Assembly: GCF_028368995.1 (NCBI RefSeq)
Contig: NZ_JAQNDL010000004.1
Coordinates: 1 to 64,000, forward strand
Source of the DNA: Nannocystis bainbridge
Lineage (GTDB): Bacteria; Myxococcota_A; Polyangia; Nannocystales; Nannocystaceae
Direction: 5' to 3'
DNA length: 64,000 bases
In this document: positions 762 to 7,708 of the stretch, one piece after another
Position numbering within the stretch: the first letter of the stretch is position 1
Layout of the letters: the number at the start of each line of letters is the position of its first letter
Notes under the pieces: model-generated
The model's input: the letters and a program-made list of their open reading frames with translations, nothing else
Databases searched by the model: none
What the model was told of the DNA's origin: nothing
Translations under genes and position numbers: made by a program

Positions 762-1664
762 TCAACCCGCCAGCGGCTGCGGGTCCCACGCCGCCAGGGC
801 CCGGTAGAACTGCGCCGGATCCATCCGCGGCGGCAGCCCAGCGACCTGGCCGTCGCCGAGCTCGATCGCCGTCCAGCCGCCGGCAGCGCGCTCGGCGAGG
901 TCGAGGCTGAAGAAGCGACACGGCACGCGCCGTGCGAGTTCGGTGAATTCGGGCGGCGCGATCGAGTCGGCGATCTCCCACGCGGGTGACTCGATCAGGG
1001 GGCGCCCGTCGGCGATGAAGCGCCGCCACTCGCGAGGCAACGGCATGTCGCTCCTCGGGTCGTTCCCGAGCGGCACCAGGGGTTCGTAGGCGCGGAAGAC
1101 CAGCCCGCCGACGAGGTCTTCCCCCTGGCGCGCGAGGAAGTTGCCGACGACGCGGCGGACCTCCGCGTCGTCGTCGGCGGCGCGGATGAAGCACGCGTCG
1201 TTCCACTCGTGCTTGCGCGACTTGACGTAGTCCTTGACGATCAGCGCGCGCGCGCCGAAGGGCGCCAGCGCGGCTGCGATCCGCGAGTCCTCGAGGCCCG
1301 CCGCGAGCGGCAGCACCACGGTCGCCGGGGTGTCGTCGCCGAGGTGCGGCAGCGCGGCCGGGAGCAGGTGCGCGCTGCGGTGAGCCGCCGGATCGTTGAC
1401 GAGCTGCAGACCTCGCGCGAGCAGGCCGGCGTGCAGCGCGTCGTACGCCGCGAGCGGCATCATCCAGCCGCGGTAGATCGCGACCTCGATCCGCTCGCTC
1501 GCCGGGACCCGTCGCAAGGCCGCGCCGACGTCGCCACCGACCAGCGCCTCGAAGTCGCAGCACGACCACGCGAGCCCCGCTGCGTCGGCGGCCGCGACCT
1601 CGGGCGCGAACGCGCGGTCGGGGCTGCGAGGCAACAGCGGGTCCGTGCAGAACAGTACGCGCAT
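762..1664 (-). CDS. ATP-grasp domain protein.
   Basis: 300-aa ORF. Motifs such as ALIVKDYVKSRKHEWNDACFI and overall similarity to ATP-grasp ligases. Divergent from vgrG. Confidence 0.55.
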   Translation of the reverse strand: MRVLFCTDPLLPRSPDRAFAPEVAAADAAGLAWSCCDFEALVGGDVGAALRRVPASERIEVAIYRGWMMPLAAYDALHAGLLARGLQLVNDPAAHRSAHLLPAALPHLGDDTPATVVLPLAAGLEDSRIAAALAPFGARALIVKDYVKSRKHEWNDACFIRAADDDAEVRRVVGNFLARQGEDLVGGLVFRAYEPLVPLGNDPRSDMPLPREWRRFIADGRPLIESPAWEIADSIAPPEFTELARRVPCRFFSLDLAERAAGGWTAIELGDGQVAGLPPRMDPAQFYRALAAWDPQPLAG

Positions 1665-1717
1665 GCGGGCATGATAGCGGGCGCCCGCGCGCGTCGCCGC
1701 GTCCGTGGTGCCGGCGC

Positions 1718-5967: not shown

Positions 5968-6848
5968 CGGAGCTCCAGACGACCGTTCGGCCGGTCACGC
6001 CAGCCGACTTCCCGCTCGACGATGCGACCCGCGCGCAGATCTTCTATCGCCTGCGCCGCTACGCGTCGCTGACCTACGTCAAGCGCTGCACGCTGCTGCT
6101 GCAGAAGTTCATCGCCGGGTTCGACGCGTGGGCCCGCAAGTCGGGGCCCGATCACACGCAGTTCGCCCGCAAGGCGCTGCAGTCGCTGTACCCGCCGCTG
6201 GCGGCGCTCGAGCAGGTGCCGGGCCTCCTGCTGAGCAATCAAAAGACGCGGGCCTACGACGCGCTGAGCCAGGCCGGCTTCCTCACCGAGCTGCTCGGCC
6301 AGGGCTTCGACGGCGGCATGCGCTGGGAGCCGTTCGGCTACAACTACGGCGAGCGGCCGAGCGTCGGTCTGTTCGCGTGGGCCGAGAAGGCGCTCGAGAT
6401 GGCGGCGCAGATGCAGCGCACCGCCGAGGCCGGGTGGTCGCTGTCGCTGATGGCCCTGCAGCGCCCGGCGCCGCCGCACGCCCACCTCGAGCCGATGCCG
6501 CGGGCCGACGGCATCGTCATCGATCCGGACGAGGACGTGCCCGTCACCGGCGTGTGGGTGCCGCTCGACGTGCCGTACGGCTGCCCCAACTTCCTGGTCG
6601 AGGGCGTGCCGGCGCCGCTGCTGTCCGTCGAGACCCAGCGCGTCGACGCCGAGGGCTACCCCGGCGACCCCGAGAACCCGCCGATCGCCGCGCGCACCGA
6701 CTACGTGTACGAGGAGCTGCCGACCCGCTGGCAGCTGGCGTGGGACGACATCCGCTACCGCGCCGGCGTCGAGATCGACGAGCCCGAGTTCCTCGACGAC
6801 GAGACCGAACTGCCGGTGTGGCCGCCGGCCCACCCGCCGTCGCCATGA
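5964..6848 (+). CDS. Hypothetical protein, candidate immunity protein.
   Basis: GTG start at 5964 overlapping the effector stop. 294 aa with no recognisable domain. Confidence 0.5.
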   Translation: MTELQTTVRPVTPADFPLDDATRAQIFYRLRRYASLTYVKRCTLLLQKFIAGFDAWARKSGPDHTQFARKALQSLYPPLAALEQVPGLLLSNQKTRAYDALSQAGFLTELLGQGFDGGMRWEPFGYNYGERPSVGLFAWAEKALEMAAQMQRTAEAGWSLSLMALQRPAPPHAHLEPMPRADGIVIDPDEDVPVTGVWVPLDVPYGCPNFLVEGVPAPLLSVETQRVDAEGYPGDPENPPIAARTDYVYEELPTRWQLAWDDIRYRAGVEIDEPEFLDDETELPVWPPAHPPSP

Positions 6849-7708
6849 CCACGAGCGCCGGCATCACCCGCCCGCGCCTCGTCGTCGAGGTGCTGTGGGG
6901 GCCCGAGCAGGGCAAGAAGGCGGTGATCGCCGCCGGCGGCGCGATCACGGTCGGGCGCGACGGCGCGGCCGGTCTGTGCCTGGCCCACGACGAGGCGCTG
7001 GCGCCGGTCCACTTCCAGCTGGCGTGGGACGGCCAGGTCGCGGCGCTGCAGTCGCTGGTGAACGAAGAGACATGTCTCGACGGACAGCCGGTGCGCGAGG
7101 GCAGCAGCGGCCACGGCGGCTGGGTGCGCGCGGGCCGGTCGGACCTGGCGCTGGCGATCGAGCGCCACACGCCGCTCGAGACGCCGCCGACGCCGGAGAT
7201 GCTGGCCGCGGCGGCGCCGGCGGCCCTGGCCCTCAAGGCCGAGCCGGGCCGGCTGTTCGCGGTCGTCGACGCCTCGCGCGACGAGCGGGTGCGGGTGCTC
7301 CTGCGCGAGTCGCCGGCCCGCTACCGCTCGCTGTACGACGGCTGGCAGGGCGACGCGCTGGCCGAGAGCGCGCCGTACCTGGTCGAGCTCGGGCCGCCGC
7401 ACCCGCAGCTCGTCGACGACCTGGTGATCGAGGGCTGGCACACCGACGACGCGCGGCGCGACGGCGACGGCGGCTGGGCGATCTTCCTCTCGGTGCCCGA
7501 CGCGCGCGAGTTCGAGGCGGTGCGCCGCCACCTGCGCAAGTTCCTCATGGTCGACCTGCACCGCGAGAAGGTCTACTTCCGCTTCTACGACCCCCGCGTG
7601 CTGCAGGCGTTCGTGCCGACCTGCAACGCGGGCGAGCGGCTCGAGTTCCTCGCCGACATGGCGTGGCACGTCACCTGTCCGCAAGGACTGCTGACGTTCC
7701 GCGCCTGA
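6845..7708 (+). CDS. FHA-like domain fused to a DUF4123 T6SS effector adaptor (Tap/Tec family).
   Basis: N-terminus ITVGRDGAAGLCLAHD..HFQLAWDG..NEETCLDGQPV is FHA-like. C-terminus FAVVDASRDERV..YLVEL..GWAIFLSVPDA..FRFYDPRVLQAFVP matches DUF4123. 4-bp overlap with the upstream gene. Confidence 0.75.
   Translation: MTTSAGITRPRLVVEVLWGPEQGKKAVIAAGGAITVGRDGAAGLCLAHDEALAPVHFQLAWDGQVAALQSLVNEETCLDGQPVREGSSGHGGWVRAGRSDLALAIERHTPLETPPTPEMLAAAAPAALALKAEPGRLFAVVDASRDERVRVLLRESPARYRSLYDGWQGDALAESAPYLVELGPPHPQLVDDLVIEGWHTDDARRDGDGGWAIFLSVPDAREFEAVRRHLRKFLMVDLHREKVYFRFYDPRVLQAFVPTCNAGERLEFLADMAWHVTCPQGLLTFRA

What the first reader, a model, noticed from the sequence alone, without database searches (positions are those of the whole stretch)
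762..7708. Orphan vgrG island: ATP-grasp / VgrG-PAAR-effector-small ORF-FHA::DUF4123, with no T6SS core genes
Five plus-strand genes are chained by 4-bp ATGA/GTGA overlaps at 4558, 5964 and 6845, so they are translationally coupled. The order is VgrG, a PAAR protein with a C-terminal extension, a 469-aa protein with no known toxin domain, a 294-aa hypothetical, and a DUF4123 adaptor. A divergent ATP-grasp gene lies upstream. The adaptor sits after the presumed effector and immunity genes, not between vgrG and the effector as is usual. No tssA-M genes are in the window.
Basis: partly seen in the sequence, partly recalled or inferred. Interest (0 to 1): 0.55.

Follow-up and report, generated by a model that had tools for sequence, protein, structure and literature searches.

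The report
Orphan T6SS spike-and-toxin island, trimmed
This is a stand-alone weapon cassette for the type VI secretion system of the soil myxobacterium Nannocystis bainbridge: a spike, a spike cap with a docking handle, a probable NAD-destroying toxin, its antidote and a helper gene. The helper sits in an odd last position because the second toxin it served was deleted.

Summary
All six genes and the three 4-bp overlaps (4558, 5964, 6845) are real, and no T6SS core gene was found in the window. The genome is Nannocystis bainbridge, and TssF-TssG-Fha lie on another contig.

The interpretation needs three corrections.
1. The 294-aa "hypothetical" matches Imm72/Imm71. This is the immunity pair that Zhang et al. 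2012 linked to the predicted toxin "Ntox48".
2. The 469-aa protein does have a recognisable toxin fold. An AlphaFold model of its C-terminus matches the NADase toxins Tne2 and Tse6. Its N-terminus resembles the spike-binding "clade" domain of Tse15.
3. The PAAR extension is a TTR-like docking domain. The best fold match is the EAEC VgrG spike bound to Tle1. Homologues of this domain lie just upstream of the effector in 81 of 83 loci, carried on VgrG, PAAR, Hcp or the effector itself.

The adaptor is not misplaced. In N. radixulma and three metagenomic relatives, FHA::DUF4123 is followed by a 134-aa gene and a Tle1-like lipase. In the window, a deletion of about 2.1 kb left only the last ~17 codons of that lipase.

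Verdict: an ordinary kind of island carrying an uncharacterised, widespread cargo-effector family. No activity has been tested.

The parts
762..1664 (-). R2K.3-family ATP-grasp gene, divergent neighbour of vgrG. Membership in the island is doubtful.
   Evidence: Pfam R2K_3 108.7 bits and R2K_2 48.1 bits. The ExGD motif typical of R2K.3 (ELGDG) is present; the family is described in PMC4431377. The gene holds this position in N. punicea, N. pusilla and N. radixulma and in no other locus. dN/dS is 0.19-0.30.
1802..3919 (+). vgrG spike gene, 705 aa from TTG 1802 (an alternative GTG start lies at 1718). It has no C-terminal TTR or toxin domain.
   Evidence: Phage_GPD 289.6, Gp5_trimer_C 97.7, Phage_base_V 56.7 bits. 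TIGR03361 608.8 bits. The N. punicea orthologue is annotated at 705 aa.
3935..4219 (+). PAAR domain of the 208-aa spike-cap protein.
   Evidence: PAAR_motif 81.7 bits, residues 16-81.
4229..4561 (+). C-terminal extension of the PAAR protein: a TTR-like beta-sandwich followed by short helices. Proposed docking handle for the effector.
4558..5277 (+). Effector N-terminal alpha-helical domain (aa 1-240), with two hydrophobic helices centred on aa 43 and aa 87. Proposed loading and translocation domain.
5278..5967 (+). Effector C-terminal toxin domain (aa ~245-420) with an NADase/ART-type fold, plus a Gln-rich tail.
5964..6848 (+). Cytoplasmic immunity gene of Imm71-Imm72 type.
   Evidence: Imm72 35.6 bits (cut-off 25); Imm71 24.3 bits (cut-off 27). 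The WxDxRY motif is present as WDDIRY. No signal peptide or transmembrane stretch is apparent by eye in the sequence. A homologue lies immediately downstream of the effector in 70 of 70 loci.
6845..7708 (+). FHA-like::DUF4123 adaptor or chaperone gene, now without a downstream effector.
   Evidence: DUF4123 84.7 bits and Yop-YscD_cpl 29.7 bits. Weak NCBIfam hit to Tla1, the Tle1 chaperone. In L171, L088, L091 and L106 it is followed by a 134-137-aa gene and a Tle1-like lipase gene. dN/dS is 0.35-0.56.
7709..7934 (+). Deletion scar: the degraded last ~17 codons of a Tle1-like lipase gene, followed by its downstream spacer.
   Evidence: blastn: window 7402-7701 matches L171 10601-10899, and window 7712-7934 matches L171 12988-13211, so about 2.09 kb is missing. 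The remnant reads RPRRWRAAGQPP against the Tle1 C-terminus TPRRFRLKGQPPDFDWE*, with a shared GAGTGACGCG context around the stop codon.

Best explanation
This is an auxiliary (orphan) vgrG cargo island of N. bainbridge that feeds a T6SS whose core genes lie elsewhere in the genome.

Proposed mechanism, all steps inferred:
1. The VgrG trimer is capped by the PAAR protein.
2. The TTR-like C-terminal extension of the PAAR protein is the socket. The conserved helical N-terminal domain of the 469-aa effector docks onto it.
3. After firing into a neighbouring cell, the two hydrophobic helices of the N-terminal domain help the C-terminal domain reach the cytoplasm.
4. The C-terminal domain has a TNT/Tse6/Tne2-like fold. 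It most likely hydrolyses NAD(P)+ and stops growth.
5. The producer is protected by the cytoplasmic Imm71-Imm72 protein, whose gene is translationally coupled to the toxin gene.

The FHA-like::DUF4123 gene at the end of the operon is the adaptor of a second cargo module (adaptor, 134-aa protein, Tle1-like phospholipase). That module is intact in N. radixulma and in metagenomic relatives. In N. bainbridge a deletion of about 2.1 kb removed the lipase and left the adaptor last.

Shown here: gene content, homologies, predicted folds, synteny statistics, the deletion and its scar, and core genes elsewhere. Inferred: every binding step and every activity.
For: Organism and gene calls.

Domains.

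Toxin fold:
- AF2 pLDDT is above 90 over aa 245-420.
- Foldseek gives Tne2 and Tse6 at probability 1.00.
- The invariant F288, R305, R330 and Q378/Q386 parallel the aromatic/Arg/Arg/Gln set of TNT (F727, R757, R780, Q822). Tne2 has F330 and Q387; Tse6 has W344 and Q413 (PMC6398120).

Effector-immunity pairing:
- An Imm72/Imm71-type gene is adjacent in 70 of 70 loci.
- Arrays of immunity genes and orphan toxin-domain-plus-immunity modules occur in L085, L086, L131 and L146.
- Between N. radixulma and the window, effector and immunity are only 60% and 50% identical, while VgrG is 90% and PAAR 88%.

Docking:
- The extension domain lies immediately upstream of the effector in 81 of 83 loci (median gap 15 nt). 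Its carriers are VgrG 35, PAAR 12, an unknown 300-aa protein 4, Hcp 2, and other, fused or unresolved 28.
- In a separate frame check it is fused in frame to the effector in 8 of 85 loci.
- Its predicted fold best matches the VgrG spike bound to Tle1, entry 6sjl.

Deletion.

Core genes elsewhere. In the relative L088, the island abuts TssE-F-G-Fha.
Against: - No sequence-level match to any NADase family. There is no Pfam Ntox46 or TNT hit and no PDB sequence hit, even with a family profile.
- Foldseek E-values are only 2.6e-3 to 5.6e-3, and TM-scores normalised to the target are 0.50-0.56.
- Correspondence of the catalytic residues rests on sequence pattern and spacing. No superposition was possible.
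- Zhang et al. 2012 predicted a BECR RNase fold for Ntox48, the toxin partner of Imm71/72.
- The adaptor gene is intact and under purifying selection in three species that lack the lipase (dN/dS 0.35-0.56). It may therefore still serve the remaining effector, or one encoded in trans.
- Only TssE, TssF, TssG and Fha were seen in Nannocystis. TssB, TssC, Hcp, TssK, TssL, TssM and ClpV were not looked for.
Confidence: 0.55

Rival explanations
1. The FHA::DUF4123 protein is the dedicated chaperone of the 469-aa effector, shielding its hydrophobic N-terminal helices. On this view, its position after the immunity gene is the native, functional order in this lineage.
For: - Its start is translationally coupled to the immunity gene by an ATGA overlap at 6845.
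- It co-occurs with the effector in every locus of the PAAR-carrier clade that has enough downstream sequence.
- It is intact with dN/dS 0.35-0.56 in three species that have lost the lipase.
- Known DUF4123 proteins chaperone effectors that load through PAAR or VgrG (my own knowledge of Tap-1, TEC and TecT).
Against: - About 80 loci carry this effector family with no DUF4123 gene at all. Examples are those where VgrG carries the extension, as in Yersinia.
- In all four relatives with an untruncated operon, the adaptor is directly followed by a 134-aa gene and a Tle1-like lipase, which is the usual adaptor-then-effector order.
- It gives a weak NCBIfam hit to Tla1, the Tle1 chaperone.
- In L088, a second DUF4123 protein fused to a Tsi6 immunity domain also sits between one toxin and the next effector-like gene.
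Confidence: 0.25
2. The effector C-terminal domain is an ADP-ribosyltransferase that modifies a protein or RNA target, not a plain NAD(P)+ glycohydrolase.
For: - ART-fold Rhs toxins with several different activities are known (PMC13285283; PMC13617354 listed).
Against: - The best matches are strict NADases: Tne2, RDTND and Tse6.
- The C-terminal domain has no invariant Glu that could serve as the catalytic residue of an ART. Its invariant polar residues are R305, R330, Q378 and Q386. This matches the Arg/Arg/Gln pattern of TNT-type glycohydrolases.
Confidence: 0.17
3. The C-terminal domain is a BECR-fold RNase, as Zhang et al. 2012 predicted for Ntox48, the toxin partner of Imm71/Imm72.
For: - Imm71 and Imm72 are listed as immunity proteins of Ntox48.
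- The stated conserved residues of Ntox48 (R, [RK], Q, Q) fit R305, R330, Q378 and Q386.
Against: - The 2012 fold assignment rested on secondary-structure prediction and profile comparison.
- Identity between this domain and Ntox48 could not be tested directly, because no Ntox48 model turned up in the Pfam searches.
Confidence: 0.06
4. The effector kills by inserting its N-terminal hydrophobic helices into the membrane as a pore-former. The C-terminal domain would then be only a targeting or regulatory module.
For: - There are two hydrophobic helices, with Kyte-Doolittle peaks of 2.05 and 1.93.
- The N-terminus gives a weak hit to DUF4112, which I recall as a small-membrane-protein family.
- The N-terminal domain is the most conserved part of the protein.
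Against: - The immunity protein shows no hydrophobic stretch or signal peptide by eye. Immunity to membrane toxins is normally membrane-bound (general knowledge).
- Orphan modules pair only the C-terminal domain with an immunity gene (L086, L104, L126, L131).
- The hydrophobic helices carry invariant charged residues: D37, D48, R53 and D54.
Confidence: 0.05

Closest known systems
P. aeruginosa PAAR4-TecT-co-TecT-TseT-TsiT module (Burkinshaw et al. 2018; recalled from my own knowledge, not read here)
   Same: - A PAAR protein with a C-terminal TTR-type extension.
- A separate cargo effector with its immunity gene.
- A DUF4123 chaperone in the same operon.
   Different: - The gene order differs, and no DUF2169-type co-chaperone is seen here.
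- The toxin has an NADase fold, not a TseT-type nuclease.
- The DUF4123 protein carries an FHA-like domain. It most likely belonged to a second effector, a Tle1-like lipase that is now deleted.
EAEC VgrG1 TTR domain bound to Tle1 (PDB 6sjl), and A. baumannii VgrG15 with the Tse15 clade domain (PMC11461821)
   Different: - Here the sandwich sits on PAAR, not VgrG. It sits on VgrG in the Yersinia-type homologues.
- The effector has no Rhs cage and no lipase domain.
- No binding has been shown.
T6SS NADase effectors Tne1 (Tse6), Tne2 and Tne3-Tne5 (PMC10539506, PMC13285283)
   Same: - Predicted toxin fold.
- Cytoplasmic target, implied by a cytoplasmic immunity protein.
- A conserved aromatic, Arg and Gln set.
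   Different: - The founders and examples described in the two papers I read are fused to PAAR or to PAAR/Rhs. This one is a stand-alone cargo protein loaded through a TTR handle.
- No sequence similarity to them is detectable.
- The Imm71/72 immunity type did not appear in any NADase paper retrieved.
Ntox48 with Imm71/Imm72, a predicted polymorphic toxin and immunity pair (Zhang et al. 2012, PMC3482391)
   Same: - The immunity protein matches Imm72 and Imm71.
- The conserved R, R/K, Q, Q pattern fits.
- The association with T6SS and the spread across proteobacteria and acidobacteria fit.
   Different: - The predicted fold here is NADase-like, not BECR RNase.
- Identity with Ntox48 could not be tested directly.
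- The N-terminal loading domain and the TTR handle do not appear in the passages of that paper I retrieved.
M. xanthus orphan vgrG2-tsxE-tsxI cluster (PMC5801462)
   Same: - A myxobacterial orphan vgrG operon carrying an effector and immunity pair.
- It is used by a single T6SS encoded elsewhere.
- An FHA-domain gene is drawn in orthologous clusters.
   Different: The effector there has amidohydrolase and LysM domains and is unrelated. No PAAR-TTR or DUF4123 protein is described in the passages I retrieved.

Membership tests
Auxiliary (orphan) vgrG effector island of a T6SS | A VgrG with gp27-like and gp5-like domains, followed by cargo genes. | tested here: met
   Phage_GPD, Phage_base_V and Gp5_trimer_C hits; TIGR03361 608.8 bits.
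Auxiliary (orphan) vgrG effector island of a T6SS | No T6SS core genes next to the island, but core genes elsewhere in the same genome. | tested here: inconclusive
   No tss gene among the 36 ORFs scanned in the 64-kb window. TssF annotated as N. bainbridge lies on another contig. TssF-TssG-Fha occur in the same run, SRR28201026. TssB, TssC, Hcp, TssK, TssL, TssM and ClpV were not searched for.
TNT/Tse6/Tne2-like NAD(P)+ glycohydrolase toxins (Tne families) | The palm-domain fold shared by TNT, Tse6 and Tne2. | tested here: met
TNT/Tse6/Tne2-like NAD(P)+ glycohydrolase toxins (Tne families) | Sequence membership in a described family (Pfam Ntox46 or TNT, or similarity to Tne2 or Tse6 chains). 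| tested here: not met
   No Pfam hit for the window protein or for any of 54 homologues at E up to 1. No PDB sequence hit with the single protein or with the family profile.
TNT/Tse6/Tne2-like NAD(P)+ glycohydrolase toxins (Tne families) | Active-site set: a stacking aromatic residue, a phosphate-binding Arg, a structural Arg and a catalytic Gln. | tested here: inconclusive
   F288, R305, R330, Q378 and Q386 are invariant in 54 sequences. Their order and spacing are similar to TNT F727, R757, R780 and Q822. No structural superposition was available to confirm equivalence.
TNT/Tse6/Tne2-like NAD(P)+ glycohydrolase toxins (Tne families) | NAD(P)+ hydrolysis and immunity-reversible toxicity. | not testable with these tools
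   Needs an enzyme assay and co-expression.
Ntox48 / Imm71-Imm72 polymorphic toxin pair (Zhang 2012) | The immunity protein matches Imm72 (GxxE, WxDxRY) and Imm71, often fused. | tested here: met
   Imm72 35.6 bits against a cut-off of 25, with WDDIRY present. Imm71 24.3 bits, just below its cut-off of 27. The Yersinia homologue scores Imm72 106 bits and Imm71 29.2 bits.
Ntox48 / Imm71-Imm72 polymorphic toxin pair (Zhang 2012) | A toxin domain with conserved R, [RK], Q, Q and a BECR RNase fold. | tested here: inconclusive
   The residue pattern fits. The predicted fold is NADase-like, and no RNase structure appears among the listed matches. No Ntox48 model turned up in the Pfam searches for a direct comparison.
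DUF4123 (Tap/TEC/TecT) T6SS adaptors | The DUF4123 domain. | tested here: met
   PF13503 84.7 bits, residues 137-265.
DUF4123 (Tap/TEC/TecT) T6SS adaptors | Encoded immediately upstream of its cognate effector. | tested here: not met
   In the window it is followed by a deletion scar and a histidine kinase gene. The feature is met in N. radixulma, L088, L091 and L106, where a Tle1-like gene follows.
TTR-like cargo-docking extensions of spike proteins | A transthyretin-like beta-sandwich at the C-terminus of VgrG or PAAR, with the cargo gene adjacent. | tested here: met
FHA phosphothreonine-binding domains | Conserved Gly-Arg, Ser-x-x-His and Asn residues of the pThr pocket. | tested here: not met
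   The Gly and His are invariant. In the Nannocystis clade the Ser is Ala (LAPVH), the Arg is variable, and the Asn is absent in all aligned homologues. Only Yop-YscD_cpl is hit, below its cut-off. Assignment of the canonical residues is from my own knowledge of FHA motifs.
R2K.3 ATP-grasp family | An R2K_3 HMM match and the ExGD motif. | tested here: met
   108.7 bits. ELGDG is present in the sequence. The motif is described in PMC4431377.

The most novel reading that the evidence does not exclude
The TTR-like handle and the helical N-terminal domain of the effector form a portable plug-and-socket pair. This pair lets one toxin family ride on VgrG, PAAR, Hcp or stand-alone carriers. The toxin is a sixth, cargo-type NADase family that was filed as an RNase (Ntox48) in 2012. 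In Nannocystis the FHA-like::DUF4123 adaptor, orphaned by loss of its lipase, has been kept because it now serves this effector or links loading to Ser/Thr-kinase signalling.
Probability: 0.12. Interest if true: 0.6.

Novelty: new variant of a known kind. Interest (0 to 1): 0.36.

Why it matters
Orphan vgrG islands with PAAR, adaptor, effector and immunity genes are routine, so the island itself is unremarkable. Three points may still be useful.

1. A large effector family gets a testable function and loading route. More than 200 homologues were found in Myxococcota, Yersinia, Pantoea, Cedecea, Burkholderia and many metagenomes. I found no experimental report on it in the literature searched. 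The proposal is a stand-alone cargo NADase-fold toxin, loaded through a TTR handle, with Imm71/72 immunity.

2. The handle occurs on four kinds of carrier or fused to the effector. This is natural Rosetta-stone evidence for which surfaces interact, and it could guide the engineering of T6SS payloads.

3. The case is a caution for genome reading. An odd gene order was explained by a small deletion that only became visible by comparing sister species.

Tried and rejected
- HMM and sequence searches on the effector gave no toxin family. This covers Pfam and NCBIfam on the window protein, Pfam on 54 homologues, and PDB sequences with one protein and with a profile. The only hit was a weak match to DUF4112.
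- Pfam on the PAAR extension and three homologous extensions found nothing at E up to 10.
It could not show the core cluster. TssF from a relative was used for that purpose.
- The Tang et al. 2018 Tne2 paper (PMC5798281) is not held. Tne2 residues were taken from PMC6398120.
- The sigma-70 promoter and intrinsic terminator scan of 600-8200 found nothing, as expected at 71% GC.
- I considered the ATP-grasp gene as part of the system. Linkage is limited to one genus, and R2K.1, not R2K.3, is the family tied to T6SS loci. I rejected it for lack of evidence.
- I considered the FHA domain as a phospho-dependent switch. The pThr-pocket residues are degenerate in this clade, so I judged this unlikely.
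- I considered that N. radixulma gained the lipase by insertion. The 3' remnants of the lipase gene in N. bainbridge, N. punicea and N. pusilla rule this out.

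
Full report
**Observation**

The window has about 71% G+C. The 469-aa protein is 100% identical to a hypothetical protein of Nannocystis bainbridge. Third-codon-position GC is 0.92-0.97 for each of the six proposed genes. The frame of highest GC3 switches exactly at 4558, 5964 and 6845, where the sequence reads ATGA, GTGA and ATGA.

- VgrG: Phage_GPD 289.6 bits, TIGR03361 608.8 bits.
- PAAR: 81.7 bits, plus an extension of about 110 aa.
- DUF4123: 84.7 bits, with an FHA-like N-terminus.
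- A divergent R2K_3 ATP-grasp gene: 108.7 bits.

The vgrG start is probably TTG 1802. Pfam scans of 30 other GC3-supported ORFs in the window found kinases, proteases, an MVP-like protein and others, but no tss gene.

**The immunity gene**

The 294-aa product matches Imm72 above the Pfam cut-off (35.6 bits against 25). It matches Imm71 just below the cut-off (24.3 against 27). It also carries the WxDxRY motif as WDDIRY.

Zhang et al. 2012 list Imm71 and Imm72, often fused, as immunity proteins of a predicted toxin domain they called Ntox48. They give its conserved residues as R, [RK], Q, Q and predict a BECR RNase fold.

I see no signal peptide or hydrophobic segment in the protein. That points to a toxin acting in the cytoplasm.

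**The effector**

No HMM library recognises it, apart from a weak DUF4112 hit over two hydrophobic helices. It belongs to a family of more than 200 proteins. These occur in Myxococcota, Yersinia, Pantoea, Cedecea, Burkholderia and many metagenomes.

An alignment of 54 members shows two features:
- An extremely conserved N-terminal region.
- A C-terminal domain with invariant F288, R305, W329-R330, W359, G361, Q378, G382-G383 and Q386.

An AlphaFold2 model built on that alignment has pLDDT above 90 across residues 245-420.

Foldseek gives Tne2 and Tse6 as its only high-probability hits. Both have probability 1.00, with E-values of 2.6e-3 and 5.6e-3.

TNT-type NADases use a stacking aromatic residue, two arginines and a glutamine. 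In TNT these are F727, R757, R780 and Q822. Tne2 has F330 and Q387, and Tse6 has W344 and Q413. The invariant F288, R305, R330 and Q378/Q386 have the same order and similar spacing. I could not superpose the structures to confirm this.

The R, R, Q, Q set also fits Zhang's description of Ntox48. My reading is that this domain is what was called Ntox48, and that its fold is NADase-like rather than BECR. Neither point could be tested directly, because no Ntox48 model turned up in the Pfam searches.

**The PAAR extension**

tblastn showed that residues 96-208 of the PAAR protein are homologous to four other sequences:
- The N-terminal extension of roughly 600-aa effector homologues.
- The linker of an Hcp-effector fusion.
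- The C-terminus of an unannotated 300-aa protein upstream of other homologues.

I then surveyed 90 effector loci drawn from genomes and metagenomes.
- Position: the domain lies within 700 nt upstream of the effector in 81 of 83 loci with enough sequence. The median gap is 15 nt.
- Carriers: VgrG 35, PAAR 12, the 300-aa protein 4, Hcp 2, and other or unresolved 28.
- Fusion: in a separate frame check it is fused in frame to the effector in 8 of 85 loci.
- Immunity: an Imm71/72-type gene follows the effector in 70 of 70 loci.

TTR-type extensions of spike proteins are already thought to bind cargo. The gene fusions are therefore Rosetta-stone evidence that this handle binds the effector's N-terminal domain.

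**The adaptor**

FHA::DUF4123 proteins are common in Myxococcota and occur in other phyla. FHA has been noted as the most frequent extra domain on DUF4123 proteins.

Among the effector loci, DUF4123 occurs only in the PAAR-carrier clade related to Nannocystis. About 80 loci deliver the same effector family without it.

In all four relatives with an untruncated operon (N. radixulma L171 and metagenomic L088, L091, L106), the adaptor is followed by a 134-137-aa gene and a Tle1-like phospholipase gene. In N. radixulma the rest of the island and the downstream HAMP histidine kinase gene are syntenic with the window.

blastn places window 7402-7701 on L171 10601-10899. It places window 7712-7934 on L171 12988-13211. 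About 2.09 kb is therefore missing.

The sequence just after the adaptor's stop codon still reads RPRRWRAAGQPP. The Tle1 C-terminus reads TPRRFRLKGQPPDFDWE*, and the two share the context around the stop codon. N. punicea and N. pusilla keep larger 3' remnants.

So the adaptor heads a second cargo module whose effector was deleted. That explains the odd order. The weak NCBIfam hit to Tla1, a Tle1 chaperone, agrees with this.

Against a pure relic view, the adaptor has dN/dS 0.35-0.56 in all species pairs, including those without the lipase. The neighbouring kinase gene has 0.31-0.49. It may therefore still work, on this effector or on one encoded in trans. Its FHA pocket residues are degenerate in this clade.

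**Orphan status**

- A TssF annotated as N. bainbridge lies on a 3.03-Mb contig, while the island's contig is 755,881 bp.
- The raw-read assembly that holds the effector (SRR28201026) also holds TssF-TssG-Fha.
- N. radixulma has TssE-F-G-Fha elsewhere in its genome.
- In the metagenomic relative L088, the island abuts TssE-F-G-Fha. This suggests the Nannocystis island was separated from the baseplate genes.
- The other core genes were not checked.

**Polymorphism**

Between N. radixulma and the window, VgrG is 90% identical, PAAR 88% and the adaptor 78%. The effector is only 60% identical and the immunity protein 50%, with dN/dS 0.8-0.95. The N-terminal 150 residues of the effector are the best conserved part.

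Several loci carry arrays of immunity genes or orphan toxin-domain-plus-immunity modules. This is typical behaviour for polymorphic toxins. It supports the C-terminal domain as the toxin and the Imm71/72 protein as its partner.

**Comparison and verdict**

The island is a standard kind of T6SS auxiliary module. The closest known relatives are:
- The PAAR4-TecT-TseT system, from my own knowledge.
- The VgrG-TTR/Tle1 and VgrG15/Tse15 loading modes.
- The Tne NADase effectors.

It differs from the Tne effectors described in the papers I read, which are PAAR or Rhs fusions. This toxin is a stand-alone cargo protein with no detectable sequence similarity to them, and its immunity type differs. Literature searches found no study of this family beyond the 2012 comparative-genomics listing.

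Every activity and binding step remains inferred. I rate it a new variant of a known kind, of modest interest.

Noticed in passing
window 29612-32416 (-): A 934-aa ORF hits the eukaryotic major vault protein models MVP_shoulder (35.1 bits) and Vault_3 (33.2 bits), both above their cut-offs. A vault-protein homologue in a myxobacterium may deserve its own look.
   Followed up: no
window 24569-25777 (+), 25884-27098 (+) and 11908-14466 (+): Two tandem paralogues of about 400 aa carry DUF4215 and a short fibrinogen-C-like hit. A third ORF of 852 aa carries DUF4215 with a PPC domain. These look like secreted Cys-rich repeat proteins of unknown role.
   Followed up: no
L088 4693-6890 (-), a metagenomic relative: Divergent from the same vgrG lies a PAAR-Ntox46 (Tse6-like) toxin gene. 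It is followed by a single 381-aa protein that combines a Tsi6 immunity domain with FHA-like and DUF4123 regions, and then by a pesticin-like gene. An immunity-adaptor fusion between two effectors is unusual.
   Followed up: partly
L171 11348-11735 (N. radixulma): Between the 134-aa gene and the intact Tle1-like gene lies an internally deleted Tle1 copy: an N-terminal piece (aa 10-55) next to a C-terminal piece (aa 328-409). Such repeats could have promoted the deletions seen in the sister species.
   Followed up: partly
window 4558-6848 compared with L171 7681-10004: The effector and immunity pair is far more diverged between Nannocystis species (60% and 50% identity, dN/dS 0.8-0.95) than the flanking VgrG, PAAR and adaptor genes (78-90%). 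This suggests diversifying selection or allele replacement.
   Followed up: partly
window 762-1664 (-): An R2K.3 ATP-grasp gene with the family's ExGD motif keeps its divergent position next to vgrG in four Nannocystis species but appears nowhere else among 174 loci. Burroughs et al. 2015 linked R2K.2 and R2K.3 genes to an ADP-ribosylglycohydrolase gene in some firmicutes. That is curious beside an NAD-utilising toxin, but there is no evidence of a link.
   Followed up: partly
window 6845-7189 (FHA-like part of the adaptor): In the Nannocystis clade the canonical FHA Ser (SxxH) is Ala and the Arg is variable. Archangium, Cystobacter and Sorangium homologues keep GR...SxxH and hit PF00498. Phosphothreonine binding has probably been lost in this clade.
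   Followed up: partly
L172 7098-7720 (N. pusilla): The PAAR-TTR gene is intact in the DNA but was not called in the gene table returned for that assembly.
   Followed up: yes
L094, L098, L123, L169 (metagenomic loci): In some loci the open frame reaches only about 35-50 codons upstream of the TTR-like domain. The domain may therefore be encoded there as a small stand-alone protein upstream of the effector, with no VgrG, PAAR or Hcp part. How such a handle would reach the spike is unclear.
   Followed up: no
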